This document shows positions 1-64,000 of a stretch of 64,000 bases of DNA, in pieces; the first letter of the stretch is position 1; each line of letters opens with the position of its first letter. The stretch covers positions 21,638,001 to 21,702,000 of the forward strand of contig NC_043001.1 of the NCBI RefSeq assembly GCF_006345805.1, given 5' to 3'. Under the pieces are notes generated by a model that was not told where the DNA came from, made no database searches, and saw only the letters and a list, made by a program, of their open reading frames with translations. Made by a program: the position numbers and the translations under genes. This DNA comes from Octopus sinensis (lineage: Eukaryota).

Positions 1-298
1 AAAGGGAGAATTGGAGGTGAAGGATATAAGAATGAGCGATGAATTCGTGGAAAATATGGATGAGTATTTCGGAGTAAGAATGGATATGGAATTTATTCGT
101 ATTGGCAAGAACATTCAAGTGACGATGAAAAACAAAGGACAGGTAAGTGATGCTAACGGATGGGGCCGTTGGTATCGCTTTCATACTATCATTTTCTTTC
201 ACTTAACAATTCATTTTTCATAAATTTTAATTATAATGTTCTATGTCCCCATGTGTTTGGTGTCGCCCTCTGTGTCGCCCCTAGTGGGTAATAAAGAA
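1..298 (+). mobile_element. 3' part of an ORF1/Gag-only retroelement unit (array continues beyond the window start)
   Basis: Near-identical to ~3710-4006; ends in tail ...cccctagtgggtaataaagaa, followed by the 20-bp spacer at 299-318. Confidence 0.85.
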
Positions 299-318
299 TC
301 ACCACATCTGAACCATTT

Positions 319-1280
319 GGCTGCTGTGATCAGCGGCCACGAGAAGGAAGTGGATATTCTCCATGCCTCGGTTAAGTCCGAGGGCTGGAGAGGCGTAACA
401 GTGGAGCTGAACGTACAGGCAGAGAACGAGGTACTGGTGGACCTGGCGGAAAGCATCAGATTGGGAGACGTGATCATGAGAGTGTGGGTGGAGGGCAGAG
501 CTCCACGTTGTTACAAGTGTGGCCTGAGGGGTCACATAAGAGCCTTCTGCCCTCCCCCAGGGAAAGAAATGGATTCCGAACCACACAGAGAGAAGCAGAA
601 ACCAGAAGAGAAGGAGACAGTAGAAGAGGAAGAAAATACACAGAAATGGAAGGAAGCTGGAAATAAGAGGAAGAGAAGAATACGAGGAAAAGAAAATAAC
701 ATGGAACACCAATCTACCCCAAAACCACCCACACCCTCTGAGTCCCACCCTATTCCTGCAGACAGTGAACCCACCCGCTCCCCCCCAACAAGAAAACAAA
801 GGAAAAAAAATAATACACACAGACAAGAGATTGAATTCGATATCAGGCCGTACATTTGTACTATGACTGAACAGAAAGAAGTTAAAAGTCTAATGGAAGA
901 GTATAAATGGTATGAAGTTGGTGAGACTAGGTATGCTGTGATTGAAAAGAAGAACATAGGTGAGTTTATGGTGAGGTGTGAAAGGGAGAATTGGGAGGTG
1001 AAGGATATAAGAATGAGCGATGAATTCGTGGAAAATATGGATGAGTATTTCGGAGTAAGAATGGATATGGAATTTATTCGTATTGGCAAAGAACATTCAA
1101 GTGACGATGAAAAACAAAGGACAGGTAAGTGATGCTAACGGATGGGGCCGTTGTATCGCTTTCATACTATCATTTTCTTTCACTTAACAATTCATTTTTC
1201 ATAAATTTTAATTATAATGTTCTATGTCCCCATGTGTTTTGGTGTCGCCCTCTGTGTCGCCCCTAGTGGGTAATAAAGAA
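319..1280 (+). mobile_element. 5'-truncated ORF1/Gag-only unit with CCHC knuckle and intact C-terminus
   Basis: ORF 236..1132 contains CYKCGLRGHIRAFC and runs to ...QRTGK*. The unit starts at the position equivalent to ~3064 of the long copy; period 982 bp. Confidence 0.85.
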
Positions 1281-1300
1281 TCACCACATCTGAACCATTT

Positions 1301-2265
1301 GGCTGCTGTGATCAGCGGCCACGAGGAGGAAGTGGATATTCTCCATGCCTCGGTTAAGTCCGAGGGCTGGAGAGGCGTAACAGTGGAGCTGAACGTACAG
1401 GCAGAGAACGAGGTACTGGTGGACCTGGCGGAAAGCATCAGATTGGAGACGTGATCATGAGAGTGTGGGTGGAGGGCAGAGCTCCACGTTGTTACAAGTG
1501 TGGCCTGAGGGGTCACATAAGAGCCTTCTGCCCTCCCCCAGGGAAAGAAATGGATTCCGAACCACACAGAGAGAAGCAGAAACCAGAAGAGAAGGAGACA
1601 GTAGAAGAGGAAGAAAATACACAGAAATGGAAGAAGCTGGAAATAAGAGGAAGAGAAGAATACGAGGAAAAGAAAATAACATGGAACACCAATCTACCCC
1701 AAAACCACCCACACCCTCTGAGTCCCACCCTATTCCTGCAGACAGTGAACCCACCCGCTCCCCCCCCCCCCAACAAGAAAACAAAAGAAAAAAAATAATA
1801 CACACACACAAGAGATTGAATTCGATATCAGGCCGTACATTTGTACTATGACTGAACAGAAGAAGTTAAAAGTCTAATGGAAGAGTATAAATGGTATGAA
1901 GTTGGTGAGACTAGGTATGCTGTGATTGAAAAGAAGAACATAGATGAGTTTATGGTGAGGTGTGAAAGGGAGAATTGGGAGGTGAAGGATATAAGAATGA
2001 GCGATGAATTCGTGGAAAATATGGATGAGTATTTCGGAGTAAGAATGGATATGGAATTTATTCGTATTGGCAAAGAACATTCAAGTGACGATGAAAAACA
2101 AAGGACAGGTAAGTGATGCTAACGGATGGGGCCGTTGGTATCGCTTTCATACTATCATTTTCTTTCACTTAACAATTCATTTTTCATAAATTTTAATTAT
2201 AATGTTCTATGTCCCCATGTGTTTTGGTGTCCCCCTCTGTGTCGCCCCTAGTGGGTAATAAAGAA
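1301..2265 (+). mobile_element. Second 5'-truncated ORF1/Gag-only unit (frameshifted)
   Basis: Same truncation point (ggctgctgtgatc) as the unit at 319; several 1-nt indels split the ORF; period 985 bp. Confidence 0.85.
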
Positions 2266-2285
2266 TCACCAAATCTGAACCATTT

Positions 2286-4006
2286 GGTCGGTCGTGTTTT
2301 TTTACGCTCGTAAAATTCGGCAAAAAAGAACAAAAAGCGTTGTTGTTGTTGTGGAAATTCTGAACGGCGTTGATGCGGTTTCGCGTTTCGCTCGTTCTGC
2401 GCGCTACACTTTTTTCTGTTTTGGCGGCCGTTTTCGGTCTGTCAGACAGAAGGAAATGGACTATGAGTCTCTAACAGACTTGTCCACGACAGATGAGGAA
2501 CTGGAACAGGCAATTACAATGAAGCTGATGGAAGAAAAGGCTGGAGTTTTCGAGTCTTTATCAGACTTGTCTACGTCTGAGAAGGAGCTAGAAATGGCAG
2601 CGAGGAAATTGGACGAGAAGCTGGGTTATACCTATGCCGGTGTAACCAAGAAGGCGGAAGAGAAAGGGGTCGACTTGGCCAAGCTACCAAGTTACCAGAA
2701 ATACATGAAAAAGGAAAGCGGTGAGGTGGAACTAGCACCGACACCCGGGAGAAAAGAATGGTATGATAAGAGGACCATTATTTACAGGGTGTTCGCAAAC
2801 GAAAGGAAGAGGGTAGAAGTTGTAACCATGGAGTGGATAGAGGAAGCCCTGAGAAGATCGGAGGAGGAAATTAATTTTCTGACTCGAGGATCCAAGTATG
2901 GTACCGTAGTTGTGCGTTTTAAAAGTGAGACTGCAGCGAGGAAGATGGCGGCGAAGGCGGTGAAGTCAGAAAAGGTAACACTTCTACCTACGTATTTGAA
3001 TAGAAGGATTACACGTGTGAGGATGGAGGGAGTGCCCCCAAACGTGGAGGCAGAGTGGATTGTGGCGGCTGTGATCAGCGGCCACGAGGAGGAAGTGGAT
3101 ATTCTCCATGCCTCGGTTAAGTCCGAGGGCTGGAGAGGCGTAACAGTGGAGCTGAACGTGCAGGCGGAGAACGAGGTACTGGTGGACCTGGCGGAAAGCA
3201 TCAGATTGGGAGACGTGATCATGAGAGTGTGGGTGGAGGGCAGAGCTCCACGTTGTTACAAGTGTGGCCTGAGGGGTCACATAAGAGCCTTCTGCCCTCC
3301 CCCAGGGAAAGAAATGGATTCCGAACCACACAGAGAGAAGGAGACAGTAGAAGTGGAAGAGAATACACAGAAATGGAAGGAAGTTGGAAATAAGAGGAAG
3401 AGAAGAATACGAGGAAAAGAAAATAACATGGAACACCAATCTACCCCAAAACCACCCACACCCTCTGAGTCCCACCCTATCCCTGCAAACAGTGAACCCA
3501 CCCGCTCCCCCCCAACAAGAAAACAAAAGAAAAAAAATAATACACACACACAAGAGATTGAATTCGATATCAGGCCGTACATTTGTACTATGACTGAACA
3601 GAAGAAGTTAAAAGTCTAATGGAGAGTATAAATGGTATGAAGTTGGTGAGACTAGGTATGCTGTGATTGGAAAGAAGAACATAGATGAGTTTATGGTGAG
3701 GTGTGAAAGGGAGAATTGGGAGGTGAAAGATATAAGAATGAACGATGAATTCGTGGAAAATATGGATGAGTATTTCGGAGTAAGAATGGATATGGAATTT
3801 ATTCGTATTGGCAAAGAACATTCAAGTGACGATGAAAAACAAAGGACAGGTAAGTGATGCTGACGGATGGGGCCGTTGGTATCGCTTTCATATTATCATT
3901 TTCTTTCACTTAACAATTCATTTTTCATAAATTTTAATTATAATGTTCTATGTCCCCATGTCTTTTGGTGTCCCCATCTGTGTCGCCCCTAGTGGGTAAT
4001 AAAGAA
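2286..4006 (+). mobile_element. Apparently full-length (1721 bp) ORF1-only non-autonomous non-LTR element (HAL1/HeT-A-like architecture)
   Basis: Flanked by 20-bp direct repeats tcaccaaatctgaaccattt (2266-2285) and tcaccaaatatgaaccattt (4007-4026). ~170-bp 5'UTR, one ORF, ~150-bp 3'UTR ending AATAAAGAA; no room for RT or endonuclease. Confidence 0.8.
2456..3857 (+). CDS. ORF1/Gag-like nucleic-acid-binding protein with a single CX2CX4HX4C zinc knuckle; 1-nt frameshifts near 3600-3625
   Basis: ATG at 2456 (MDYESLTDLST...). Duplicated acidic N-terminal motif, knuckle CYKCGLRGHIRAFC, basic KRKRR segment. The C-terminus can be restored from the intact frame in the 319-1280 copy. Confidence 0.75.
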
Positions 4007-4496
4007 TCACCAAATATGAACCATTTTGTTGCACAATACATCTCCATCTTTCCTTTAACTTAAAAATACCCTCTTCCCAGAATTGAGGTGGTTTCATGGC
4101 AAAGAATTCATCAAGGTCTCTTTTTATGTCATCCAAGGAATTGAAATTTTTACCATTAAGACTATTCTGCAGAGACCTGAATTAGTGGAAATCTGAAGGA
4201 GCAATATCTGGTGAATATGGAGGGTGGGATAACATATTCCAGCCGAGCTGCAGCAATTTTTGTCTGGTTCCCAAAGCATCAAGTGCTGAAAATGAACTTT
4301 CTCATCTTCCATGTTAAAGGGTTATAGAATTAACACAGGTTATAGGAACATAAACCTTCTTCCACGAAAAGATAGCTTAAACTGTGCTCTAAATGGAGGT
4401 GTAGTCAAATCCTATTTTATGGACTCAACCATGTTCTAAAATAAGTCGAAATGTAAGCTACCATAAATTGGCACGAACTTTCCGGACATCCCAATA
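4007..4496 (-). mobile_element. Internally deleted mariner transposon, interrupted by the ORF1-element array
   Basis: Minus strand reads MEDEKVHFQHLMLW fused to ...LSHPPYSPDIAPSDF...WEEGIFKLKERWRCIVQQNGSYLV (mariner YSPDLAPxD motif and C-terminus). TIR-like tattgggatgtccggaaagttcgtgc with terminal TA at ~4471-4496. Confidence 0.85.
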
Positions 4497-6147: not shown

Positions 6148-6349
6148 TATAATCGATTTACCCACTCCCATAAAATTTCAGACTTGAAAATTTATTAGAA
6201 CGGATTATTATAATGATTAGTCAACAATTTAACCATTGTTTCACTTATCATCTTGTCAATCAGCTAGACTTGTCAAACTCTTTTTGTCGTTATCAATGAC
6301 GTACCTTTTGTATTATTGGTCTGCGCCGCTGGGAATGGTATTGAGAAAA

Positions 6350-6764
6350 GGCGGTGAGCTGGCAGAATCGTTAGCACACCGGGCGAAATGCGTAGCCGTA
6401 TTTCGTCTGCCGCTACGTTCTGAGTTCAAATTCCGCCGAGGTCGACTTTGCCTTTCATCCTTTCGGGGTCGATAAATTAAGTAACAGTTATGCACTGGGG
6501 TCGATGTAATCGACTTAATCCCTTTGTCCGTCCTTGTTTGTCCCCTATGTGTTTAGCCCCTTGTGGGTAGTTAAGAAATAGGTATTTCGTCTGCCGCTAC
6601 GTTCTGAGTTCAAATTCCGCCGAGGTCGACTTTGCCTTTCATCTTTTCGGGGTCGATAAATTAAGTAACAGTTACGCACTGGGGTCGATATAATCGACTT
6701 AATCCGTTTGTCTGTCCTTGTTTGTCCCCTATATGTTTAGCCCCTTGTGGGTAGTAAAGAAACA
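6350..6764 (+). mobile_element. tRNA-SINE family A, dimeric
   Basis: Head agctggcagaatcgttag...gagttcaaattcc, central gcctttcatcctttcggggtcgataaa (resembles the conserved MetaSINE-type core), body repeated from 6581; direct repeat ggtattga at 6337 and 6765. Confidence 0.85.
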
Positions 6765-7106
6765 GGTATTGATGAAATGTTTTTGTTTTGTTATTTTTTG
6801 TTTATTTGTTGTTGTTTTTTTTCCATTGAAGATTTTAAAAGGGGAAATAACACCTGGTTGAAGACTACATACTACATAAAGTTTTCTAAATATTAGTAAC
6901 TACGTCACCACTTTTTTTATCTTGATCCCCCCGCCACTATTCCCTCTGCTACTCTCTAAATTATAGTAGGCTTAACAAGGTATGTATTATTTTCTAAACT
7001 CATTCTGCCACAGTTATAGCAAAAGGGAACAATGTACATATTTTGGTTTCCATTATTGATGTAAATTTGTTAAAAAATGGTTTATCCTTTACGTTTGAAG
7101 TCTATG

Positions 7107-9664: not shown

Positions 9665-10096
9665 GGATCTTTTCGGTTTGAACGGCAGTTTTTAACATAA
9701 TTTCTAGGTAACTAAAAAATTTTTAATTTCGTATACTGGTAGAATGTGTTTATGAAACATCTTTTTCTCTTGGCTTTATTGAGAAAATTCTATAGTTTGT
9801 AAGATATTTGTTGTTTTTTTCTTCAATTTCTGCAATTTCAACCAATCAATGACGTCCATTGAGGTAAAAAAACATTTTGTGCTGTATGAATATGTCCCTC
9901 GTTTAAGAAACAGATTGAGTTTATTTACATTTGTGAAGAAAAAAAGATACCCTTCACCCATCCCTAACCCTAACCCTAACTAACCCTAACCCTAAAACAG
10001 ATTGAAATGCAATAGATCGATACTAGGGTCATAATTATGGGTGACAATTTCATATGACACCGCTAGAAAAAACTGCCGTTCAAACCGAAAAGATCC
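9665..10096. mobile_element. MITE with ~28-bp TIR, 8-bp TSD and internal CCCTAA repeats
   Basis: TIR ggatcttttcggtttgaacggcagtttt; TSD tgctctcc at 9657-9664 and 10097-10104. Confidence 0.9.
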
Positions 10097-13850: not shown

Positions 13851-14333
13851 AGTTAAATGCAGTCGATTACGGGAGAAAAAATGGCTATCACTGGTTGTAT
13901 TGCCTGAGACAGATCAACGCTGCTGTCCCGACCACTCGACTTAATCCCTTTGTTTGTCCCCTCTACGTTTAGCCCCTTTTGGGCAATAAAGAAATACGAA
14001 AAGTAACAAGCTTTAAAAAAAAAAGAAGTACCGGAATCGGTTTGTTCCGACTAAACTCTTGAAGGCGGTGCCCCAGCATGGCCGAAGTCCAATGGCAGAA
14101 ACAAGCAAAAGATAAAAATAAAAAATAAATAAAACCCCTATGAAGTCACAAGCTCTTCATGCTGGATCAATACTATTCTGGCAAGAGTTACATCAACAAG
14201 AACAACAACGCAACAGTCACAATTTTCCAGTTTAGAATTATTTACTCACCAATATGCTTAAAAAGGGATCATTTCTATGCTTTCCCACCTTATATCTTAT
14301 TTAGCTTGAAAAGCCAAAAACGGCTTAGTTTTG

Positions 14334-14718
14334 GACGTTATCAAAGAAGCTTGAGAGGCGGTTGGATGGAACCTACACTCGCCTCCTTATGAGAGCTCAA
14401 AATCTCTCGTGGAAGCGCCATCCAACCAAAATGCAAATATATGGGAAACTACCACCTGTGTCATCTCTTGTGAAAGGTAAGAGAGTCCAGTTTGCTGGAC
14501 ATTGTTGTAGAGCTGAAAAAGAGACAATTTCTACTCTTCTCCTCTGGAAGACATCTACTCGCAATACCAGAGGGCGCACACTCTCCTACCCTGATGTAAT
14601 CTCCAGGGATACAGGCATCCAGCAACAGGACCTCCGTAATGCCATGATGGACCGTGAAGTCTGGCGTAGCATGGTAAATTCCATTGTCTCGACCACGGTC
14701 GAACAATGATGATGATGA
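14334..14718 (+). mobile_element. 5'-truncated RTE-group LINE 3' end
   Basis: TLSKKLERRLDGTYTRLLMRAQN...VQFAGHC...MDREVWR; (TGA)n tail; TSD tagttttg at 14326-14333 and 14719-14726. Confidence 0.85.
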
Positions 14719-15708
14719 TAGTTTTGTTTGAATATTTTGTTCCAGTCTCAATTTTAGTTGTCGAGATTTCTGACTCAACCCAAAATTCTGACAAAGTCAA
14801 ATTCCTTTCATCAAGTAACTCCACCACAACAGAATCCCCCTAGGGAATATATTGTAATAGTATTTTCCAACCATTCAAATGATGTGGGATATAAATAAAT
14901 AATAATTGACTATAAACTAACTCCCAGCTGTCTTTAGATAATGCAGTATGGTTGTCCACTAACAAAATTAATCTTTAAAAAAAAAAAACAACTATATACG
15001 CAGAATAAAACAACCGACTATTTAAACTTTTTAGAGTTTTTTTTCCATTGTATTATTTACCAGAAATTTGTTTTATTTTATTTTATTAGTTTATCCTTTA
15101 ATTATAGTCAATTTTCTGCTGTTTGCAGAAGTGATCATTCTCTCTTAGCTAAGATTCTGTTTTCGAAATTATTTTAAAATGTTGTATAGTGGCTTGATAC
15201 AATTGCTTCTAATTAGGGTAAGCCTGCTACTTAGAAAGCACTTGCATTGCTGTAAATAGCACTGAAAATATCTGTACCTGTATACACAATAGATATAACT
15301 GTGTGTTTTAACACAGAGACACACCGTTACACGCATACAATACTTGTAGCATCCAATGAGCGGACCCATTAAAATCAGAAAACTCTAAATGAACTATTTG
15401 TTCTAAAAAGGATGTTGTACAGTTCTTGGGGAGGGATAAACACACACATGTGTGTGCATGTATGTGTGTGTTGGTATATATATGGATGTGTGATGTCAAT
15501 CTGTACTTATACGATGAATATATATTAACAGATATACATATGTATGTGTGTACGTTATATGTGTTCGTGTATGTGTTCGTGAATATTTTGAATATATGTG
15601 TATATGTATGTGTGTTTGTACAGAACATAGAAGTATATATACAGAGAGAGAGAGAGATAAGAGCTTAGATAAATGCACACATCTTTCAGTGTGTATATAT
15701 TATATATA

Positions 15709-16782: not shown

Positions 16783-17391
16783 AACAACAAACAAGATGAG
16801 GACAAATATCCGTCGAATGTAAATAATGTAAATAACGTAAATAATGTACATAATTCCTCATCTCTTAAATATAGAACTGTATTATCCAATATGTTCTACA
16901 ATTTTTGAAAGAATATAAGGTTCGATTCGGGGGATATTTTGATGCCATTGGTGGGATTCAGCTGTTACAAATACCGATAATCATAAGAAACAACATTTGT
17001 TTTGTTTTTTTCTTTTTTTTTTTACTTAAGTATAAATTAAGAGCTGAATTGATCGATTTTCTATAATTCTCATACGAAATTAATGAATTTCTTTAGCAGC
17101 TGGGTGCATACGTGTGTGTATTCATTAAGATATAGAAAACATTTTAATTAAAATTAATATTCAAATTTATAGTCCTTGAGTCAAGAATAATATTAAAAGT
17201 AGGATATTTCCTTAAATAATTATCCATACCTTTATGTGTGCCAACGCCTACCTTTTCTTTCTCAGACTATAAACGGGAAAAGGCTTGTTACTGTCTCGTT
17301 TGTCTTTTCTGTTGAGGTCCTCAGGCCGAGGTAACTTCTCTATTCAGTATAAAACAAAGAAGTGTACATCTTAATATTTGATATGCTAAAA

Positions 17392-18417
17392 GGCGGTGAG
17401 CTGGCAGAAACGTTAGCACGCCGGGCGAAATGCGTAACCGCATTTCGTCTGCCGTTACGTTTTGAGTTCAAATTCCGCCGAGGTCGACATTGCCTTTCAT
17501 CCTTTCGGGGTCGATGAATTAAGAACCAGTTACGCACTGAGGTAGATATAATCGACTTAATCCGTTTGTCTGTCCTTGTTTGTCCTCTCGTTTGTCCTCC
17601 CTTTTGTGGGTAGTAAAGAAATAGCTATTTCGTCTGTCTTTACTTTATGAGTTCAAATTCCGCCGAGGTCGACTTTGCCTTTCATCCTTTCGGGGTCGAT
17701 GAATTAAGAACCAGTTACACACTGGGGTAGATATAATCGCCTTAATCCCTGTGTCTGTCCTTGTTTGTCCTCTCTGTGTTTAGCCCCTTGTAGGTAGTAA
17801 AGAAAAGGTATTTCGTCTGTCTTTACGTTCTGAGTTCAAATTCCGCCGAGGTCGACTTTATCTTTCATCCTTTCGGGGTCGATGAATTAAGAACCAGTTA
17901 CGCACTGGGGTAGATATAATCGACTTAATCCGTTTGACTGTCCTTCTTTGTCCTCTGTGTGTTTAGCCCCTTGTGGGTAGTAAAAAAAAGGTATTTAGTC
18001 TGCCGCTACGTTCTGAGTTCAAATTCCGCCGAGGTCGACTTTGCCTTTCATCCTTTCGGGGTCGATGAATTAAGAACCAGTTACGCACTGGGGTCGATGT
18101 AATCGACTTAATCCCTTTGTCTGGCCTTGTTTGTCCTCTCTGTGTTTAGCCCCTTGTGGGTAGTAAAAAAAAGGTATTTAGTCTGCCGTTACGTTCTGAG
18201 TTCAAATTCCGCCGAGGTCGACATTGCCTTTCATCCTTTCGGGGTCGATGAATTAAGAACCAGTTACGCACTGGGGTAGATATAATCGACTTAATCCGTT
18301 TGTCTGTCCTTGTTTGTCCTCTCTGTGTTTAGCCCCCTGTGGGTAGTAAAGAAATAGGTATTTTGTCTGCCGCTACGTTCTGAGTTCAAATTCCACCGAG
18401 GTCGACTTTGCCTTTCA
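17392..18417 (+). repeat. SINE family A tandem array: one head, five bodies and a partial sixth (183-184-bp period)
   Basis: Tail-to-body junctions at ~17624, 17807, 17990, 18173 and 18357. Confidence 0.9.
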
Positions 18418-22504: not shown

Positions 22505-23431
22505 ATGATGTTGTACGAGGACTGCAGCTCTTCGGGGCTATCTTCCTCGGAAGGTGAACTTATAAAATGTGTTAAAGAAATGGACAAGAAAATGGAAGAG
22601 AAAAAAACTTTTACAAAAGTTGCGGAGGTACAGAATAAGGATGTGGATTTAACGAAGTTAAAGAGTTACAAGAAGATGTCAAATAGAGATGGTGGCGACG
22701 TAAAGTTGTCCCCTCTTCAAGGAGTCATGAAAGTTAAGAACGAAAAAAAGATTATCTACAAAGTTTATTCAACAGAAGCGAAGAAAATTGAAATTATGTC
22801 AAGAGATAATATAGAAAGGCTTTGAAGCTAATCTGGCAATATATTACATATCTTGCCAGGGGAAGTAAATTAGGTACAATAGAGGTTCGACTCAAAGAGG
22901 CAGCCAAGGCAAGACAGTACTCGGCAATTCCTTTAAGAACTGATAGTGTGGTACTTCTACCCACATACCGTGGAAGACGAGCTTCCAGGATTAGGGTAGA
23001 GGCGATTCCACCCGAAATTGATGTGGCCTAGGTGGCGGCTGCTGTACTTCTCGGCAACGAGGATGAAATAGCAGTCCTCCAGGCCACTATGATTGAGAAT
23101 ACAAATTGGAGAGGACAAACGTTAGATATGATCATTCAGGGATCACAAGAAAACTTGGAAAGTATGACAGAGACAGTTACAATTGAGGACACGGTGGGGG
23201 GCAGAATCCCTCGATGCTTTAAATGTGGCCTGAATGGTCATTTTCAGAGCGGACTGCCCTTCATCAACAAAGGGAACCAAAGAGGAACCCAGGGAACCAG
23301 CGAAAGCGGAGGAGGATTTACAATCAGAAGAAATGAAGGAGAATGACGAGATGTGGAAGACAGTGAAAAGCAGGAACAAAAGGAAAAGGCAACCCCAACC
23401 CGAGCTACGTACCCAGTCAAGTAACCGGTGA
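22505..23431 (+). pseudogene. Diverged, disrupted paralog of the ORF1/Gag-like protein
   Basis: Collinear motifs: VDLTKLKSYKK ~ VDLAKLPSYQK; YLARGSKLGT ~ FLTRGSKYGT; LLPTYRGRRASRIRVEAIPP ~ LLPTYLNRRITRVRMEGVPP; PRCFKCGLNGH(F)RADCP. Contains stops and frameshifts. Confidence 0.85.
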
Positions 23432-23512
23432 TCCTTCGGAAGAACCCCTTTTCGGATGTTTGTATACGGAATCATAACCTTTTAGTTATTACCCACCATT
23501 CATGAACTCATG

Positions 23513-24285
23513 AGAGAATGGGCACAAAAACCGAGCTGAAGATGGCGAGTTTGGTTTTCCTACCAACCTCTCCTCTAAGGATTGAATATTGGAGCTGGTG
23601 CATTACTGTGCTAGCACCTGCAATTCTGACACCCAATTCAGCCTCCTGTCTTCCATCTCCCCTGAATACGGGCCCGAGATACTTGATCTTTCTTACTTGT
23701 CTAAGGGATGTCCTACAGGCATGCAGAGTACATTAGAAAGACTTTCTTGAGAGGAATAATGTCTCCGTCTTCGCAACGCTAATTCTTATCACTGCCTTGC
23801 ATCACTCGACAGCAAACCCATTCAGTGCATGCTGAAGATAACCTGCCGACGAACCAAGAAGCGCCATGTCGTCTGCAAATATCAGCCGACCGATCCTGCA
23901 TTTATCGGTTGTAAGGCGGCGAGCTGGCAGAAACGTAAGCACGCCGGGCGAAATGCTTTGCGGTATTTCGTCTGCCGTTACGTTCTGAGTTCAAATTCCG
24001 CCGAGGTCGACTTTGCCTTTCATCCTTTCGGGGTCGATAAATTAAGTACCAGTTACGCACTGGGGCGATATAATCGACTTGATCCGTTTGTCTGTCCTTG
24101 TTTGTCCCTTCTGTGTTTAGCCCCTTGTATGTAGTAAAGATATAGGTTGTAATACCCCTTCCATACCGACTGCGTGTATCAATCCAGTTCATAAAAATTA
24201 TGAAAAGGAGAAGTAACAATGCACACCCCTACCGAAGCCCAACACCCACATTGAAAGCTTTCAGCTTTTAACATTGCCTGCATTG
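23513..24285 (-). mobile_element. RTE-group LINE reverse-transcriptase fragment split by a SINE
   Basis: FNVGVGLR*G...LFIIFMNWI | RLIFADDMALL...KYLG...KTKLAIFSSVFVPIL across frameshifts and stops. Confidence 0.8.
23915..24144 (+). mobile_element. SINE family A monomer
   Basis: TSD ggttgtaa at 23907-23914 and 24145-24152. Confidence 0.9.
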
Positions 24286-27117: not shown

Positions 27118-27149
27118 TATATTTGTATATCAATATTTGTGAACATTAA

Positions 27150-27407
27150 GGCGGCGAGCTGGCAGAAACGTTAGCACGTCGGGCGAAATGCTTAGCGGTA
27201 TTTCGTCTGCTGTTACGTTCTGAGATCAAATTCCGCCGAGGTCGACTTCGCCTTTCATCCTTTCGGGGTCGATAAATTAAGTACCAGTTACGCACTGGAG
27301 TCGATATAATCGACTTAATCCGTTCGTCTGTCCTTGTTTGTCCTCTCTGTGTTTAGCCCCTCGTGGGTAGTAAAGAAATAGGTATTTCATCTGCCGCTAC
27401 GTTCTGA
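27150..27407 (+). mobile_element. SINE family A plus the start of a second body
   Basis: Junction aaagaaata|ggtatttcatctgccgctacg at 27381. Confidence 0.85.
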
Positions 27408-30573: not shown

Positions 30574-31627
30574 AATGGCCCTCTCAGACATGCCCTCAGC
30601 CACGCAGAGAGCCACGATCACAAGTTATGCAGATGATACAAAAGTTTCACAGGCAATACAGAACCTGAGGACAATAAACGCCTGCAATGTGAGCTGGACA
30701 AAATATACAAGTGGGCTGAAAAGAATAGCATGCAGTTCAATGCTGAAAAGTTTCAAGCTTTATACTATCAGCATGCAAAACTAAATGCAATACCCAATGA
30801 ATACACTGGACCCGGAGGAATTGCAATCCCAGAGGCACAATCAGTGCGTGACCTGGGTATTTACATGAGTGATGACGCAACCTTTCGTGTACATGTTGCT
30901 AAATTGGCAATGAAATGTAGACGACTGGCCGGATGGATTCTCAGAACCTTTAGAACAAGAGAACAAGAAACCATGATGGTCCTCTGGAGGACACTTGTCC
31001 TAAGCCACTTTGACTATTGCTCTCAGCTATGGTCACCATCCAATGTCAAGTTGATCACAGAACTTGAGGCGATCCAACGTAGCTACACGAAGAAGATAGC
31101 CTCTATGCAGAATATAAGCTACTGGGAAAGACTCAAGAGATTAAAACTCTATTCCTTGGAGCGTAGGCGAGAAAGATATGCTATAATATACATCTGGAAG
31201 ATCCTGGAGGGACTTGTCCCAAACTTTGGCATCGAGAGTTACACAAATGCCAGAACTGGGCGCCACTGCGTGGTGCCTAGGACTCCAAATTTGCCATCAA
31301 GATGTAGGACAGATACTGTGATAGCCTGGGCTTCCGAGGCCCACAGCTCTTCAATATCCTCCGAAGAACCTAAGGGACCTGCATGGGGTGGATGCAGATG
31401 TCTTTTAAATGAAACTGGATCTCTTCTTGTCAGGTATCCCAGATGAACCAACTTCACGGCAGGAGGTGCAGATGAGGACAGCTGCATCGAACTCTCTCAT
31501 GCACCAAATGGCAGTTGCTAAAAAGCATTCGTGAAGTAAAACCATGTAGCAACACCAAATGGCGGTGCCCCAGCATGGCCACAGCTCATGAGCTGAAACT
31601 AGAATCAATCAATCAATCAATCAATCA
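30574..31627 (+). mobile_element. 5'-truncated CR1/L2-group LINE (RT C-terminal half), frameshifted
   Basis: SYADDTKV...MQFNAEK...VRDLGI...HFDYCSQLWSP...YWERLKRLKLYSLERRRER; (AATC)n tail. Confidence 0.9.
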
Positions 31628-34356: not shown

Positions 34357-34822
<466 letters not shown>

Positions 34823-34999
34823 GAATGTATGTATGTGCAGATTTGTATGCATCGCATGCTGTTCTCTGGATATGATCAGAAATATAGGGTTCGAGTATAC
34901 AGGGGGGGCTAGAAAGAAATTAGATAACAATATACGTTATATACCAGTGGTACCTGCCTTAAATATAGAAACAAAGACTGGAATAGGATACAAAGAACT

Positions 35000-35560
35000 T
35001 GCGACAAAGCAAACATGGCGAACGCGTGGTATAAAACCGAAAATATCAAGGAGTGATGTTTGTAGAGGCCACATCCCATGGAGAACTAGCCCGTAGATTT
35101 AGGAAAGCTCTGAAGGAGACAAAACTCATCATTAACATTGTTGAAAAACCAGGGAACTCCGACAGATCACTACTATGTAGGACGAACCCCTTTGAGAATA
35201 CCATATGTACCAATGATAACTACATGGCATGTAGGATTAGCCCTAGCATTAACTGTAGAACTAAAAATATAGTTTACAGCATAAGATGCATAGAAGGTGC
35301 TTGTGAAGACATGAATATGACATACATAGGAGAGACATCTAGTAGCATTGCGGAACGACTAAATGAACATCTGAGACAATTTAACGACAAAAACAGTCCT
35401 CCACACTCTACCAACACGTCAAGGAACAACATGGAGGCAACCTGGGGCAACTTGACATCCACATCCTATCCAAGCGCCCAAAGGACCCAACACTCAGATA
35501 AATACGGGAACACGTCCTCATAAATGAAACTTCCCCAATACTAAATAGGAAATATACATA
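35000..35560 (+). mobile_element. Penelope-like (Neptune-type) linker and GIY-YIG endonuclease fragment
   Basis: FVEAT.HGELA...VEKPG...Cys-rich linker...CRTKNIVYSIRC...YIGETS.SIAERLNEH. Confidence 0.8.
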
Positions 35561-35711: not shown

Positions 35712-37796
35712 AGATGTATGTGTGTGAGGGTGTATATATGTGTATATGCACATGTACGTAAGCATATGGATATGAAAGTAAACAGATCAACATACAGACG
35801 GATAGGTACATAGGTTATGAGAACAGACAAGCACACATACGCAAATGGAAACTGAAACACATGACCATATATACATACACTTTACTTCACACAAGGACAC
35901 ATATGGAGATACACGTCCACACATATGGAGATGCACATACATGCATACAAACACGGTACATAGTTGCATACACACAAACATGGACACGCAAACACTTGAA
36001 TATGCAGAATACATACATACATATGCACACACACACACACATACATACACACACATGCGTACGTACATACATACATACATACATACATACATACATACAT
36101 ACACACATACATACATACATACATACATACATACATACATACACACATACATACATACATACATACATACATGTATAGGCACACACACACACACACTGAT
36201 CACACACATGCACAAAAACAAACAAAAATAATGCAGTGTGAATAACGGACAGAGTCAAAACTATTGAAAAGGTTGCAAGACGCAACGAAAATTTTATATA
36301 AGCACATACATACATACATACATACATACACACACATACATACATACATACATACATACAAACATACATACATACATACAAACATACATACATACATACA
36401 TACATACATACATACATACATACATACATACATACATACATACATACATACATACATACATACATAATTGTAATATAAATTTATATTCAACGGTATTACA
36501 TATATTAAGTACTCCGAGTTAGGATCACATAACACGTTTCCATACACTGTCTTGTATATAACAAGAGGCCTTTTCACACCGTGTGTTATCCAGATAATAA
36601 TTGTAGAAAGCTTTTCATAGGGAAAATATGTTACCTAAAGTACACGATGAAAAATATACTAACGCCATCCAACGAGTAATACACGAGAATAATGCCGGAG
36701 GAGAATTAAAGATTTTTACATATGTTATAGAATACATAATTCTTGAGACTGCACGGTTAAGTACAGACATCGACCCCACCAGCATAAAAGTCAAGAAGGC
36801 TCAAAGCTTTTATCAACGATCAAGGACCTAACTAGTTTTCAGTCGGACTTCTTGGACAGGATGTCAAACTTCAGATTTCGTAAATTCATCTCATCCTTTC
36901 GAGAATAGACTCAGATCTCACATTTTTTTCCTAGTCCCTGGGATTCAAGGCTGGTTACACAGTCTCCGTGGTGAATAAGTGACTAAGATCACAACTCTAA
37001 TCGTAACCCCAAACAGGACGCTGGTCCGTTTAAGGGTTCAAGACCATCGACCCCCGAAAGGATGAAAAGCAAAGACGATCTCGGCAGGATTTGAACACTG
37101 AGTATTAAAAAACCTGTAAGAAATTCCACTAAGCATTTTGTCCAACGTGCTAACGATTCTGCCAGCTCACCGCCTTAGATTTAACATTAATAAACTAGAA
37201 AATGATATCCGGATAGACCCTACTATTTTCTGACAAAACTAAGAATTTGTATGAGGTAGATAATACTTGATACAAACTGCTGCGAAATCAGAGTGACAGA
37301 AGATCAAATCCACAGGCAAGTGACAATATGTACAAGGAAGCTAGAGAGATATAACAGTAAAGTTAGATAAAGGCGGTAGGATAGAGACGGTGGTTAGGTA
37401 CAATGACCTCATCACAATCAAGTTACCATACAGCTAACTTCACTTCGAATCCTAAACGAGGTCGATAAAGTTGCTAAATCGGTGAGTGATAAGGTAAAAC
37501 CAGCAAACATACTCGTCTAATACATATATATATATATATATATATATATTCACGCTAATCGATTTTTTAACTTTATTGGGTTCTCATCACTTGATCAATC
37601 CCAGAGAAATAAATAGCCTGTCTCTTTATATACACAACGAATCCAATAGCTTTAGAGAACTGGGGCTACTAATTTGCATTCTACGAGTATTTTATATCAC
37701 CGGCCTATATCATAAACACACACACACACACCGCATACATACATACATACATACATACATACATACATACATACATACATACATACGTACATACAT

Positions 37797-38210
37797 ACCT
37801 GTTTCTTTATTACCCACATGGGGTTAAACATAGAGGAGACAAACAAGGACAGACAAACAGATTAAGTCGATTACATCGACCCCAGTGCGTAACTGGTACT
37901 TATTTAATCGATCCCGAAAGGATGAAAGGCAAAGTCGACCTCGGCGGAATTTGAACTCAGAACGTAACGGCAGACGAAATACCTATTTCTTTATTACCCA
38001 CAAGGGGCTACAACATAGAGGGACAAACAAGGACAGACAAACGGATTAATCGATTATCGTCCCCAGTGCGTACTGGTACTTAGTTAATCGACCCCGAAGG
38101 ATGAAAGGCAAAGTCGACCTCGGCGAAATTTGAACTCAGAACGTAACGGCAGACGAAATACCGCAAAGCATTTCGACCGGCGTGCTAACGTTTCTGCCAG
38201 CTCGCCGCCT
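37797..38210 (-). mobile_element. SINE family A, dimeric
   Basis: Same tail|ggtatttcgtctg junction at ~37983. Confidence 0.85.
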
Positions 38211-38259
38211 TATTCATATATACATACCACAATCTATCCGTGGATTGATTATTCTCATT

Positions 38260-43619: not shown

Positions 43620-44012
43620 TGAACCCGTCAAAGGGCAGAGGAACTCTTCAGAGTCAACGGCCATCCAATAAATGTCTTAAGGCTGTATCATGCGCGGGGA
43701 CATAGAAATAATCGGACTGAATACCCGATCGCGTGGTTAAACCATTGGGAGAGAAGGACTCCTAGCCTTTGTTAAGGCATCCTTCTGGGAGAAGGTAACT
43801 CAGGTAACTGGGATAACTCTGACATAAAACCTGCTGATGTTGAGTTGTTCTTCTTTTCGGATTATGGCTGCTGTTGCTTTGTGAGTGGGATTGACTCAGT
43901 GCACAGCCTTTCCTCACTTTAAAAAAAGTCTTCTTGCACAGGAATTGCACGATAACAACATTGATTAAGCTTTGTGCAATGGCCATACTCGATAACGAGG
44001 GGGCAGCTACCA
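43620..44012 (+). mobile_element. Non-coding RTE-derived short element
   Basis: 3' end gtgcaatggccatactcgataacgagggggcagc is identical to 34784-34817; gtcaacggccatccaa is shared with ~34160-34175. Confidence 0.65.
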
Positions 44013-44329
44013 TATATGTATGTGAAAACGATTACGCAGAAATGCAGAATGTTTATGCTTAGCAAAATCTTGTCAAGTAGGCAGACAAGCTGTCGTTGGC
44101 GAAATTCTGGTATCACATTCTGTTTTCTTTCAAATAATTTATTTGCATTCAACTTTTTTCATTGAATATTGATTGTTTTTTTTACAATAAATTTCATAAA
44201 ACGCAATACTGTCGGAACAATACAAAAGAGAAGACTGCTGGTCTCCCTCTGCACTTGTTGAACTTGTATTCACAGAGAGCTTTTGTTCTATCACTGAGGC
44301 AGCATAAAGCAACAATGTAGTGAGTGAAC

Positions 44330-44523: not shown

Positions 44524-44755
44524 TATTTCTTTATTGCCCACAAGGGGCTAAACATAGAGGGGACAAACACAGACAGACAAAGGGATTAAGTCAACTACAT
44601 CGACCCCAGTGCGCAACTGGTACTTTATTTATCGACCCCGAAAGGATGAAAGGCAAAGTCGACCTCGGCGGTGTTTGAACACAGAACGTAACGACAGACG
44701 AAATACTGCTGAGCATTTCGCCCGGCGTGCTAACGCTTCTGCCAGCTCGCCGCCT
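44524..44755 (-). mobile_element. SINE family A monomer
   Basis: 16-bp TSD cagttgatttaaaata on both sides. Confidence 0.9.
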
Positions 44756-45511
44756 TGCCAGTTGATTTAAAATAGTGATTGGATCACACTCAGCACTGCT
44801 TAGGGCATCAAGGGAAGTGGGGGGCACAGAAATGGTAGAGGGTTTACGGGACAACAGAAATCCCTCTAAACTTGCTAAAATAATATTCATTTATTTTTTT
44901 TGTCAGATGCTAGGTCATCGTCAAATTTGACGCCCAATCTGTCATATGTATATATAAATGTATGGCAGTGCGTGTTTATAAGTGTGTGTATACATATAAG
45001 TATACACACACTCACACGTATGTACATATAATACCGTGTATGTGTACATATATAGACGTATTATAAAATATATATTATATAATGTATGTGTATATATGTA
45101 TATATATGTATATATATGTATGTATATGTGTGTGTATATACTTATAAGTATATATATATTTTAATACCACATGTGTATATATATATATACATGAATTATG
45201 TGATATATATTATCAAATATGGTATGTATATGTGTATATGTATATATATGTGTGTGTGCATATATATGTATATGTGTGTGTGTGTAATAAATGAAAAAAT
45301 GCATGGTAAATAAACGTACGACATTATGTATTCTGAGTGTGAAAACAGACGGGAGACAAACACAGAAGGTCCCATATTCTTCATCAGTTATCAACCAATT
45401 GTCAATACTCAGTTTCGCACCTTTAATGCGAAACTGAGTATTTACACTCTGTATACATTATGTCGTATTTTTTTCATTACGTAATGGAAGTCAACACACT
45501 AAATTTGTATG

Positions 45512-49485: not shown

Positions 49486-49504
49486 TCTAATAATTCTAAG
49501 ATTA

Positions 49505-50420
49505 AGAATTCTATATACCAATGTAAAATTTCTTGCGGTACCGATGTCTACTTCTACATTGGCGCGTCTCCCCAGTTATCTAAGAGAATTTCCAATCATT
49601 ATTCTTCATTTAGGGATAGCAGTAAACGTTATAGCACAGGGCTAAGTAAATTGGTTTGGTATCTTAAAGACAACAATAAGGATTTTAAGATAGATTGGTT
49701 CATCCTATCCATCTCTTTCCCTTATGACAAGGGCAAAGGATTTTGTAACATTTGCAACTCTGAACTCTTCCATATTCTCTTCTCTAAGAATCATCTTGTT
49801 AACACACTTATAAGCGATCTTACAAATGTAAGCACTGGCAGAAACATACCTTTAGCTCATATAAGTGATTTTTACCAGTCTGTATAGTTTGAACATTTAG
49901 TTCACCTTACACTTTACTTCAATAGAGAAATCTACTTCCAAGCCTTTGAACATTTTTTCAATCAATATATCCCTCTTTATTTGCTCTCTACTTATTATTT
50001 CTTTACCCCCTTCTCTTCCTATGGTCTGCCTTTGACGTCGGATCTACTAACGGTTTTTTTTAATACTTAATAGCGTTCTGTTTATCATTTATACAGTCAG
50101 CAAAATTGTTATAATGTCTTGTTGTTGAGATAGGTTCTCTTTCTCTCCTGATGAGAAGATTACATTATTTTACACCGTTTATTCCTTTGGAATAAAATCA
50201 ATGTTGTCTTCGAAACATATGTCAAAAGTAAAAGAATTTGAATAACACCTGCGTTCAACACCATTTATTTACTTATACTATACAAATTACTGCACATTAA
50301 CCCGGAGTTTTTAACCTTCGAATAGGTCGCTACATCCTTGTTACTTGCGTGAATTTTGTTACCCTGGTAACTGTTTATTGAATTTTCCATGTTAACGGTA
50401 AACAAAGGATAATTCATCCA
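49505..50420 (+). mobile_element. Penelope-like element 3' part: GIY-YIG endonuclease and pLTR region
   Basis: NSIYQCKI...YFYIGA...KRISNHYSSF...STGLSKLVWYLK...IDWFIL...PYDKGKGFCNICNSE; hammerhead downstream in the same orientation. Confidence 0.8.
50141..50230 (+). ncRNA. Type I hammerhead motif in a Penelope pLTR
   Basis: CTGATGA 50148-50154; stem II gaaga/tcttc; GAAAC 50212-50216; palindromic acatatgt; GTC 50221-50223; stem I weak. Confidence 0.65.
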
Positions 50421-51901: not shown

Positions 51902-52338
51902 GGATCTTTTCGGTTTGAACGGCAGTTTTTTCTAGCGGTGTCATATGAAATTGTCACCCATAATTATGACCCTAGAATCGATCTATTGCATTTCAATCTC
52001 TTTTAGGGTTAGGGTTAGTTAGGGTTAGGGTTAGGGTTAGGGGTGGGGGAAGGGTATCTTTTTTTCTTCACAAATGTAAATAAACCCAATCTGTTTCTTA
52101 AACGAGGGACATATTCATACGGCACAGAATGCTTTTTAACTCAATAGACGTTACTGATTGGATGAAATTGCAGAAATTGAAGAAAAAAACAACAAATATC
52201 TTACAAACTATAGAATTTTCTCAATAAAGCCAAGAGAAAAAGATGTTTTATAAACACATTCTACCAGTATACGAAGTTTAAAAGTGTTTAGTTACCTAGA
52301 AATTATGTTAAAAACTGCCATTCAAACCGAAAAGATCC
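51902..52338. mobile_element. GGATC-TIR MITE (reverse orientation)
   Basis: Same TIRs; internal (TTAGGG)n; degenerate TSD aggatgtg/aagatgcg. Confidence 0.9.
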
Positions 52339-63150: not shown

Positions 63151-64000
63151 CGACTGACATTTAAGCTTTAACTGCGTTGTCTGTTTTTTCTTATATTCAA
63201 GGTTACTTTATCCACTACATTCGTCCATTTCTTAAACTATTGAGTAATATTTGGAAGATGTTCAATTTTTGTTCTGATGGTTGTTTCTTTGTTTTCAAAG
63301 GGGTACTTGTTTCTTTGTGCTTGTTTTTATAGCCCAGATCAGCCTTAAGTGATCATGATTTGCTCCATGATCAAAGTCGTTCAAACAGCGAAATGAGGCG
63401 ATTGGGCGAACCGACTTGGACGCTGACGATTTGGCATGGCTGACCGGACAGTCAATCTATTTTGATGACAATATTTCCGGTGCTAGAGGCAAACACGCGC
63501 GCGTGCAGAAATATACACATACAGATAGAGAGAAGGTGGGTGAGAGATATTACACACACATAAAAAAGAGAGAGTAAAAAAATATCAGAGAACATCTGAT
63601 ATCACATAAGTCAATTTCTTTATTAACCATGAGGTTGAGAAAAAGAGGGGACGATACGAGGACAGACAAAACAAACATTGGGGTCAGGGTATCGAATGTG
63701 ACGAAACGTATGAATAAACAAACAATTAAAATATATACAATTAAATGAGAATGAGTGATTTACAAAAAATTGTAGCGGAGGACGCGGTCAACCCCACAAA
63801 CCACATACTCACACTGAAGACTTTGCTTTCTCCTTTTTATATTCTCGTTTAAACAGGTTCTTTCACTCGCAACATACTTGCTATAGACTTCCATCTTTTA
63901 CGAAACACACTTTGCGACAGGCATTTCTTCTCCAGCCTTATTTTCCGTTTCATGAGGGAAACGAAAAAGTTGATTAGCTCGAGACTGGAGATGAACATGC

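What the first reader, a model, noticed from the sequence alone, without database searches (positions are those of the whole stretch)
3945..4006. The ORF1-only element shares its 3' tail with the dominant SINE (family A)
Seen: element tail tgtccccctctgtgtcgcccctagtgggtaataaagaa (e.g. 2228-2265) versus SINE-A tail tgtcc(c/t)ctct(a/g)tgtttagccccttgtggg(t/c)a(a/g)taaagaa. Known: SINEs share 3' tails with the LINE whose RT mobilises them. Inference: a three-member system (an unseen autonomous LINE, an ORF1-only passenger and a tRNA-SINE) uses one recognition tail. Both passengers form tandem arrays in this window.
Basis: partly seen in the sequence, partly recalled or inferred. Interest (0 to 1): 0.8.

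Follow-up and report, generated by a model that had tools for sequence, protein, structure and literature searches.

The report
Octopus retroelements sharing one recognition tail
A short jumping gene that encodes only an RNA-packaging protein, the commonest short repeat in this stretch of likely octopus DNA, and a third element cut off at the window edge all end in the same roughly 50-base tail, which likely lets one LINE's copying enzyme move both passengers.

Summary
Confirmed. The last ~49 nt of a 1.72-kb ORF1-only element (2286-4006) match SINE-A tails at 70-80%; 15 of 17 SINE tails beat all 500 shuffles. The ORF1 folds as two RRMs plus a CCHC knuckle; its named relatives are octopod. The element is multicopy, covered end to end in four runs. 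It sits here as four head-to-tail copies separated by a 19-20-bp target duplication inside a mariner fossil; tail-to-head joints with other spacers occur in two runs. New: a third tail-bearing element at 63616-64000 (minus strand) shows the end of a different ORF, a 233-nt UTR and a 57-nt tail (0/1000 shuffles). It is the candidate autonomous LINE. Its Tx1/L1 ORF2 look is recall only: no tool identified the 49 residues and no RT was seen. ORF1-only LINE passengers are known (HAL1, HeT-A, Ag-Sponge), as is SINE-LINE tail sharing. The less usual point would be a Tx1/L1-type LINE with a structured tail shared by two passenger classes. New variant of a known kind.

The parts
2286..4006 (+). Full-length ORF1-only element (~1.72 kb): ~170-nt 5' UTR, ORF1, 149-nt 3' UTR with tail
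   Evidence: all 30 bins covered in 4 of 4 runs
2456..3857 (+). ORF1 (~467 aa): tandem RRM, one CCHC knuckle, low-complexity linker, C-terminal domain; two single-base frame breaks near 3601 and 3622 in this copy
   Evidence: copy 2 reads through in one frame and contigs in all four runs show the unbroken form
3959..4006 (+). Shared 3' tail: pyrimidine/G tract, 4-bp hairpin GCCC-CTAGT-GGGT, AATAAAGAA end
1..298 (+). Element copy 1 (3' part; its start lies outside the window)
   Evidence: 96.7% to the full copy
318..1280 (+). Element copy 2, 5'-truncated at the position matching 3063 of the full copy
1300..2265 (+). Element copy 3, same truncation point; 5 substitutions from copy 2 in 979 columns, and at those 5 sites it matches the full copy
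299..317 (+). Spacer = copy of the target-site duplication
1281..1299 (+). Spacer = copy of the target-site duplication
2266..2285 (+). Spacer = target-site duplication left of the full copy
4007..4026 (+). Target-site duplication right of the array; part of the mariner coding sequence
4007..4330 (-). Mariner transposase fossil that the array interrupts
   Evidence: translation shows the HPPYSPD motif (family name recalled); uninterrupted mariner contigs run on past 4009 in X1, X3, X4
6345..6770 (+). SINE-A, one full unit (6345-6585) plus one unit restarting at SINE position 54; tails end 6577 and 6761
17388..18417 (+). SINE-A array, 5.3 units of 183 bp
37795..38211 (-). SINE-A array, two units
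44527..44756 (-). Single SINE-A copy with a perfect 16-bp target duplication
63616..64000 (-). Third tail-bearing element, candidate 3' end of the autonomous LINE; runs off the window
63849..63998 (-). Last 49 codons and stop of its ORF (basic helix with an F-x3-W motif near the end); not an ORF1 end of the known relatives; ORF2 identity from recall only
63614..63670 (-). Its 57-nt tail, 74-79% like SINE-A tails; hairpin AACC-TCAT-GGTT
22505..23420 (+). Decayed distant relative of the ORF1 (58% nt, 34-39% aa); its 3' part is replaced by an inverted RT fragment, so no tail can be read

Best explanation
The 1.72-kb element encodes only a predicted RRM-RRM-CCHC ORF1 protein and shares a ~50-nt hairpin tail with SINE-A and with a third element at the window edge, so it is likely a non-autonomous 'half-LINE' that, like the SINE, would be copied in trans by the reverse transcriptase of a LINE lineage, likely Tx1/L1-type, whose 3' end is likely the third element. 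Shown: the tail in three unrelated bodies, the ORF1-only anatomy, a 19-20-bp target duplication, many copies. Inferred mechanism: the element arose by loss of ORF2 from such a LINE. Its own ORF1p packages its RNA and may co-assemble with the LINE's proteins. The LINE ORF2p binds the hairpin tail, nicks DNA at a pyrimidine/purine step (the empty mariner site reads T-run then AATC) and primes reverse transcription at the AAAGAA(AT) end. Re-insertion at an occupied site leaves copies sandwiching the duplication, and later tandem duplication or conversion multiplied the truncated unit. SINE arrays likely form another way, by pairing of the SINE 3' end with a like motif at its own position 54 or from a multimeric source copy.
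For: Tail significance: element vs SINE, 15 of 17 tails above all 500 shuffles; third element vs element and vs 3 of 3 SINE tails tested, 0/1000. Upstream UTRs of element and third element align weakly (4/1000); the SINE matches only in the tail. The same 4-bp hairpin is the RNAalifold consensus of 20 tails; slid controls pair 2-66% of cells against 92.5%. ORF1 model pLDDT >90 over residues ~70-280, Foldseek top hits tandem RRMs, E 2e-5; RRM plus CCHC is type I ORF1 (PMC4120745), which in non-mammalian animals' L1-clade elements fits Tx1 (PMC5203782). Four runs cover the element end to end, and none of the 24 loose ends shown points into an ORF2. 11 of the 24 best-supported variant sites in ORF1 are synonymous, a hint of selection on the protein. 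The spacer is mariner coding sequence, hence a true duplication. Six tail-to-head joints with six different spacers in runs X1 and X3. Tandem copies sandwiching a duplication are described for Tx1-mobilised SINEU-3 (PMC4494074). O. vulgaris has 13 recently active L1-Tx1 families (PMC13282606). The RTE-like and CR1-like 3' ends in the window carry other tails.
Against: No RT was seen on any tail-bearing element. The 49-residue ORF end found no relative: homologue search 0, Pfam 0, Atlas best 0.79, PDB 0, motif scans gave 12 loci, none a LINE. Its Tx1 look is recalled. Type I ORF1s also occur in I, Jockey, R1, Tad1, L2 and CR1 clades, so ORF1 does not fix the clade. The hairpin is weak (-4.1 kcal/mol; 1 pair with a change on both sides, reached by 89/500 shuffles; covariation score 18/500), and whole-tail folds of single copies mostly differ. 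The third element's loop (4 nt) differs from the passengers' (5 nt), and loops decide specificity in zebrafish L2 (PMC4176376). L1-clade LINEs rarely share tails with SINEs (3 SINEs among >800 LINEs, PMC3747384), which lowers the prior for Tx1/L1. Only 1 of 11 SINE insertions gave a clean long duplication. 915 loose ends were not shown.
Confidence: 0.6

Rival explanations
1. The three-member system is real but the mobiliser is not Tx1/L1 and may not be the third element: an L2/CR1-, I/Nimb- or Jockey-type LINE with a type I ORF1 would supply the RT, and the third element would be another passenger or a sister family.
For: Hairpin tails shared with SINEs are typical of L2/CR1, also in bivalves (PMC4824008); type I ORF1 is widespread; the third element's ORF is unidentified; its loop differs.
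Against: 19-20-bp and 16-bp duplications are longer than recalled for L2/CR1; a single CCHC, against three in Jockey and most L2/CR1 type I ORF1s; the CR1-like LINE in the window ends in a different tail; the third ORF end matches none of 150 ORF1 relatives (best E 0.8).
Confidence: 0.25
2. The element got its tail secondarily: the 5' half of an unrelated LINE (ORF1) switched template onto a SINE-A or LINE tail, so ORF1 and tail come from different lineages.
For: The element tail is more diverged and shorter in its match (49 nt, 70-80%) than the third element's match to SINE-A (57 nt, 74-79%); tail exchange is common in SINEs (PMC5786205).
Against: The element's UTR upstream of the tail aligns weakly with the third element's UTR (4/1000), beyond what the SINE holds; this suggests descent from the LINE, though the region is AT-rich.
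Confidence: 0.12
3. The likeness is chance or compositional, and the array is an assembly artefact of a single gene-like locus.
For: Copies 2 and 3 are nearly identical and carry homopolymer indels typical of long-read error; tails are T/C-rich.
Against: Dinucleotide shuffles; a third independent body with the same tail; the truncated copies differ from the full copy by 20 substitutions and an 18-bp indel; tail-to-head joints exist in independent runs.
Confidence: 0.03

Closest known systems
HAL1 (half-L1) of mammals
   Same: Non-autonomous LINE derivative encoding only ORF1p (PMC5753468 passages; PMC5786205 passages).
   Different: HAL1 comes from mammalian L1, which is read through poly(A) and has a type II ORF1. 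This element has a type I RRM-RRM-CCHC ORF1, no poly(A) in the genomic copies, and a structured tail shared with a SINE.
HeT-A (Drosophila, Jockey clade) and Ag-Sponge (Anopheles, CR1 clade)
   Same: ORF1-present non-autonomous LINEs; HeT-A forms head-to-tail arrays (recalled).
   Different: HeT-A is telomeric (listing); the array here is interstitial, inside a mariner fossil, with target duplications between copies. No shared SINE tail is mentioned in the passages read.
SINEU-3 / Tx1-Mar of crocodilians
   Same: Tx1-mobilised passenger, tandem copies sandwiching a 16-bp duplication, inserted in a mariner (PMC4494074 passages).
   Different: SINEU ends in poly(A) and no LINE shares the SINEU-1 3' end. 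The other tandem spacers seen here differ from the mariner site, so mariner targeting is not indicated.
Stringent L1-clade SINE/LINE pairs: maize ZmSINE2/3 with LINE1-1_ZM, Chlamydomonas SINEX-3_CR with L1-1_CR
   Same: ~45-80-nt shared 3' end, with a hairpin and compensatory changes in the maize group (PMC3747384 passages).
   Different: Plants and algae, not animals; no ORF1-only member reported in the passages read.
Octopus CORE-SINEs OR1/OR2 (Ohshima and Okada 1994)
   Same: SINE-A is an abundant ~240-nt octopod SINE whose middle looks CORE-like (recalled); OR1/OR2 are named as octopus CORE-SINEs.
   Different: Identity could not be checked: the consensus files were not readable. No partner LINE for them appeared in the passages read.

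Membership tests
ORF1-present non-autonomous LINE (HAL1/HeT-A/Ag-Sponge kind) | Encodes a LINE ORF1-type protein | tested here: met
   Tandem RRM fold and CCHC knuckle; Atlas 0.90-0.92 to zf-CCHC, RRM and ZCCHC3-RBD clusters
ORF1-present non-autonomous LINE (HAL1/HeT-A/Ag-Sponge kind) | No endonuclease/RT between ORF1 and the 3' end | tested here: met
   149 nt from stop to tail end in all four window copies; no ORF2-type loose end among 24 shown of 939
ORF1-present non-autonomous LINE (HAL1/HeT-A/Ag-Sponge kind) | Spread by retrotransposition as a family (target duplications, 5' truncation, many loci) | tested here: met
   19-20-bp duplication in a mariner, 5'-truncated copies; many contigs and six different tail-to-head spacers in other runs
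ORF1-present non-autonomous LINE (HAL1/HeT-A/Ag-Sponge kind) | 5' and 3' parts traceable to an autonomous LINE | tested here: inconclusive
   3' end matches the third element; no autonomous element with this ORF1 could be fetched
Tx1 / L1 clade (for the mobiliser) | RT domain falls in the Tx1/L1 clade | not testable with these tools
   RT lies outside the window; no genome held
Tx1 / L1 clade (for the mobiliser) | ORF2 C-terminus of Tx1 type | tested here: inconclusive
   Resemblance recalled; searches found nothing for the 49 residues
Tx1 / L1 clade (for the mobiliser) | Type I ORF1 (RRM + CCHC) | tested here: met
   compatible but shared with other clades
Tx1 / L1 clade (for the mobiliser) | Long target duplications and, often, target preference | tested here: inconclusive
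   19-20 bp (element) and 16 bp (1 of 11 SINE insertions); no single target among six other spacers
Stringent-type SINE/LINE pair | Homologous 3' tail | tested here: met
Stringent-type SINE/LINE pair | Conserved stem-loop with compensatory changes | tested here: inconclusive
   4-bp hairpin, 92.5% of cells paired, 1 double change, covariation score 18/500 shuffles
Stringent-type SINE/LINE pair | ORF2p needs the tail for retrotransposition | not testable with these tools
   Needs a cell or binding assay as in PMC4176376
tRNA-derived CORE-SINE OR1/OR2 (for SINE-A) | tRNA-related head with A and B boxes; CORE domain; match to the OR1/OR2 consensus | tested here: inconclusive
   ARAGORN and Rfam found no tRNA, as is usual for diverged heads; consensus files unreadable; CORE look recalled

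The most novel reading that the evidence does not exclude
Octopods host a Tx1/L1-clade LINE lineage that kept strict stem-loop recognition of its RNA tail, a mode so far reported for that clade in plants and algae. It drives both the dominant CORE-type SINE and an old, diversified radiation of protein-coding half-LINEs (344 ORF1 relatives, 20-50% identity) that re-insert at occupied sites and grow interstitial head-to-tail arrays.
Probability: 0.35. Interest if true: 0.68.

Novelty: new variant of a known kind. Interest (0 to 1): 0.5.

Why it matters
SINEs make up 11.6% of the O. vulgaris genome and most recently active SINE families there are unclassified (PMC13282606); no partner LINE for the octopus SINEs appeared in the papers read. 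A tail shared by a SINE, a half-LINE and a LINE end points to the engine of that expansion. If the engine is Tx1/L1-type, it is an animal test case for the open question whether strict tail recognition is ancestral in the L1 clade (PMC3747384). It also allows a direct comparison of two parasite strategies on one RT: bring your own ORF1p, or bring nothing.

Tried and rejected
Tail pattern scans: 0 in viral, metagenome and prokaryote genome contigs. Word-indexed homologue search for ORF1: 0 at near length, 0 among proteins of 1296-3700 aa (weak by the tool's own note). Pfam on 149 of the 150 listed ORF1 relatives: no endonuclease or RT family at E 1e-5 (the one left out, P0005, is a knuckle repeat); this is weak because ORF1 and ORF2 are usually separate proteins. 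The 49-residue ORF end: blank; a degenerate motif scan gave 12 loci, none a LINE on translation; its model is one helix with no Foldseek match. The RT fragment beside the second ORF1 relative (23430-23900) is inverted and RTE-like, so it was rejected as that element's ORF2. RTE-like and CR1-like ends in the window were rejected as partners. Mariner targeting was considered and is not indicated. No RNA holder was listed for the element; this is no evidence on expression. The O. vulgaris transcript file of PMC9115989 could not be read (84 characters), nor the supplements of PMC3531059 and PMC4494074; they may bear on the naming of SINE-A and the LINE. Earlier scan notes: nothing. Rfam on the element's 5' end gave only sub-threshold chance matches.

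Full report
Setting. No genome is held for this window. The DNA is animal-like, rich in microsatellites and retroelements. Of 20 ORF1 relatives looked up, 12 carry names from Octopus sinensis, O. vulgaris, O. bimaculoides or Argonauta hians, and none names another organism. The window is therefore likely octopod.

The observation. The element tail ends at 298, 1280, 2265 and 4006. BLASTN of 3945-4006 hits SINE-A tails over its last 49 nt at 70-80% identity, best E 8e-7. Against dinucleotide shuffles of the element's last 60 nt, 15 of 17 SINE tails beat all 500 shuffles; two were reached by 1 and 3 of 500. The shared part is a pyrimidine/G tract, a 4-bp hairpin and AATAAAGAA. SINE-A matches cover 6.8% of the window. 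Its tRNA origin and CORE domain are recalled, not shown.

The element. The full copy spans about 2286-4006: a ~170-nt 5' UTR, one ORF (2456-3857, ~467 aa) and a 149-nt 3' UTR. This copy has two frame breaks near 3601 and 3622; copy 2 reads through in one frame, and contigs in all four runs laid show the unbroken form. An AlphaFold model of the first 387 residues, built on 28 relatives, is confident over residues ~70-280. Foldseek returns tandem-RRM proteins (best E 2e-5) and VIA returns RRMs (best Z 9.7, rmsd 2.3, 81 aligned). A CCHC knuckle follows (18 of 28 members hit zf-CCHC at E up to 1). This is a type I LINE ORF1 (PMC4120745 passages). The family is large: 344 representatives at E up to 0.001. 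None of 149 scanned carries an endonuclease or RT family, which is weak evidence since the two ORFs are usually separate. Six Logan contigs or contig sets that hold relatives are 1.7-1.9 kb long, about the element's length; this is only a hint that other subfamilies are ORF1-only too. In four runs from three coded organisms the stretch 2270-4330 drew 18310, 135, 8086 and 3136 contigs (mariner part included), all 30 bins were covered, and none of the 24 loose ends shown (915 hidden) points into an ORF2. Of the 24 best-supported variant sites in ORF1, 11 are synonymous, all 11 among the 17 sites up to position 3166. These rows are a selected subset of 434, so this only hints at selection on the protein.

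The array. Four copies lie head to tail. Each tail is followed by the same 19-20 bp. That sequence is the coding end of a mariner transposase fossil at 4007-4330 on the minus strand, and uninterrupted mariner contigs run on past 4009 through a T-run. It is thus a target-site duplication, with an empty site that reads as a pyrimidine/purine step (inference). Copies 2 and 3 share one 5' truncation point and differ by 5 substitutions in 979 columns. Copy 2 differs from the full copy by 20 substitutions and an 18-bp indel, and copy 3 matches the full copy at those 5 sites. I infer at least two insertions at one site, then tandem duplication or conversion; assembly error may add to this. Tandems are not special to this locus: six tail-to-head joints with six different spacers appear in runs X1 and X3, at depths 47-656 (10 rows of that table hidden). 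Five of the six continue AT after AAAGAA, like the SINE ends. Tandem copies sandwiching a duplication were described for Tx1-mobilised SINEU-3 and read as sequential insertions (PMC4494074 passages). SINE-A arrays differ: every extra unit restarts at SINE position 54, where the tail end and the internal sequence share GTATTT, with no target spacer. Of 11 SINE insertions examined, one has a perfect 16-bp duplication, three show 8-9-nt matches starting GGT, and seven show none (approximate ends).

The third member. A weak hit led to 63616-64000 on the minus strand. It holds the last 49 codons of an ORF, a 233-nt AT-rich UTR and the tail, and it runs off the window. Its last 70 nt beat all 1000 shuffles against the element tail and against each of 3 SINE tails. 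It matches SINE-A over 57 nt at 74-79% and has no SINE body. Its UTR aligns weakly with the element's UTR upstream of the tail (4/1000). Its hairpin AACC-TCAT-GGTT keeps all four pairs by eye, with a loop one base shorter than GCCC-CTWGT-GGGY. On the MAFFT alignment of 20 tails the counts are modest: 92.5% of cells paired, one double change (89/500 shuffles), covariation score 18/500, energy -4.1 kcal/mol. The 49 residues match none of the 150 ORF1 relatives (best E 0.8). From memory they resemble the C-terminus of Tx1-type ORF2 proteins, but every tool came back blank. So this is a candidate LINE end, not a proven one. Because loops set specificity in zebrafish L2 (PMC4176376 passages), it may be a sister of the family that moved these passengers. 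The RTE-like and CR1-like 3' ends in the window do not carry the tail.

How it likely works. Shown: one tail on three unrelated bodies; an ORF1-only, multicopy, duplication-flanked element. Inferred: a LINE lost ORF2 and kept its promoter, ORF1 and 3' end; its ORF1p packages the RNA, as proposed for HeT-A, HAL1 and Ag-Sponge (PMC5786205 passages); the LINE's ORF2p binds the tail and copies the element and the SINE by target-primed reverse transcription. I put the three-member system at about 0.8, the third element being an RT-encoding LINE at about 0.65, and the Tx1/L1 clade at about 0.55. Long duplications, a single knuckle and 13 recently active L1-Tx1 families in O. vulgaris (PMC13282606, part 1 of 3 read) favour Tx1/L1. 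The rarity of shared tails in that clade (3 SINEs among more than 800 LINEs, PMC3747384 passages) and the wide spread of type I ORF1s count against it.

Comparison and novelty. It works like HAL1, HeT-A or Ag-Sponge and meets three of four tested features of that kind; descent from a named LINE is open. SINE-LINE tail sharing is textbook. I found no report of an octopus ORF1-only element or of a partner LINE for the octopus SINEs in nine full-text searches. The library lacks most subscription papers and Repbase, where such a family may already be filed. Papers seen as passages: PMC4758252, PMC4824008, PMC5786205, PMC9115989 (plus part 1 of one supplement), PMC11203168, PMC3747384, PMC4120745, PMC5203782, PMC5753468, PMC3531059, PMC8967140, PMC4494074, PMC4176376; PMC13282606 first third. 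Ohshima and Okada 1994 and Bao and Jurka 2010 were seen only as citations.

Verdict. Observation confirmed, interpretation partly supported and extended by a candidate third member inside the window. New variant of a known kind; interest 0.5, rising to about 0.68 if the mobiliser proves to be a Tx1/L1 LINE with strict tail recognition.

Noticed in passing
window 30637-31612 (+): A CR1-like LINE 3' end with (ATCA)n shares a different ~45-nt tail with 8 short repeats in the window (76-85% identity): a likely second SINE-LINE pair.
   Followed up: partly
window 22505-23420 (+) and 23430-23900 (-): A decayed distant ORF1 relative is cut by an inverted RTE-like RT fragment, itself next to a SINE-A copy.
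   Followed up: partly
window 6345-6770, 17388-18417, 27148-27407, 37795-38211: SINE-A arrays all restart at SINE position 54; three single or terminal copies have target matches that start with GGT, like the tail end, which suggests priming by microhomology and self-insertion.
   Followed up: partly
window 34772-34830 (+) and 43966-44021 (+): An RTE-like tail recurs as an isolated 56-nt copy at 89% identity.
   Followed up: no
window 35035-35523 and 49486-49887 (+): Two GIY-YIG fragments, likely Penelope-like elements.
   Followed up: no
proteins P0006, P0010, P0011, P0018, P0027, P0115: Several ORF1 relatives carry a C-terminal domain after the low-complexity linker, loosely alike among themselves but without a significant match to the window's own C-terminal 97 residues; no Pfam family.
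   Followed up: no
proteins P0064, P0067, P0086, P0113: ORF1 pieces are fused in gene models to C2H2, LDL-receptor, WD40 and Helitron helicase domains, probably annotation chimeras over insertions.
   Followed up: no
window 9962-9995 and 52003-52042: Short interstitial TTAGGG arrays.
   Followed up: no
window 14329-14720 (+): RTE-like 3' end that finishes in (TGA)n.
   Followed up: no
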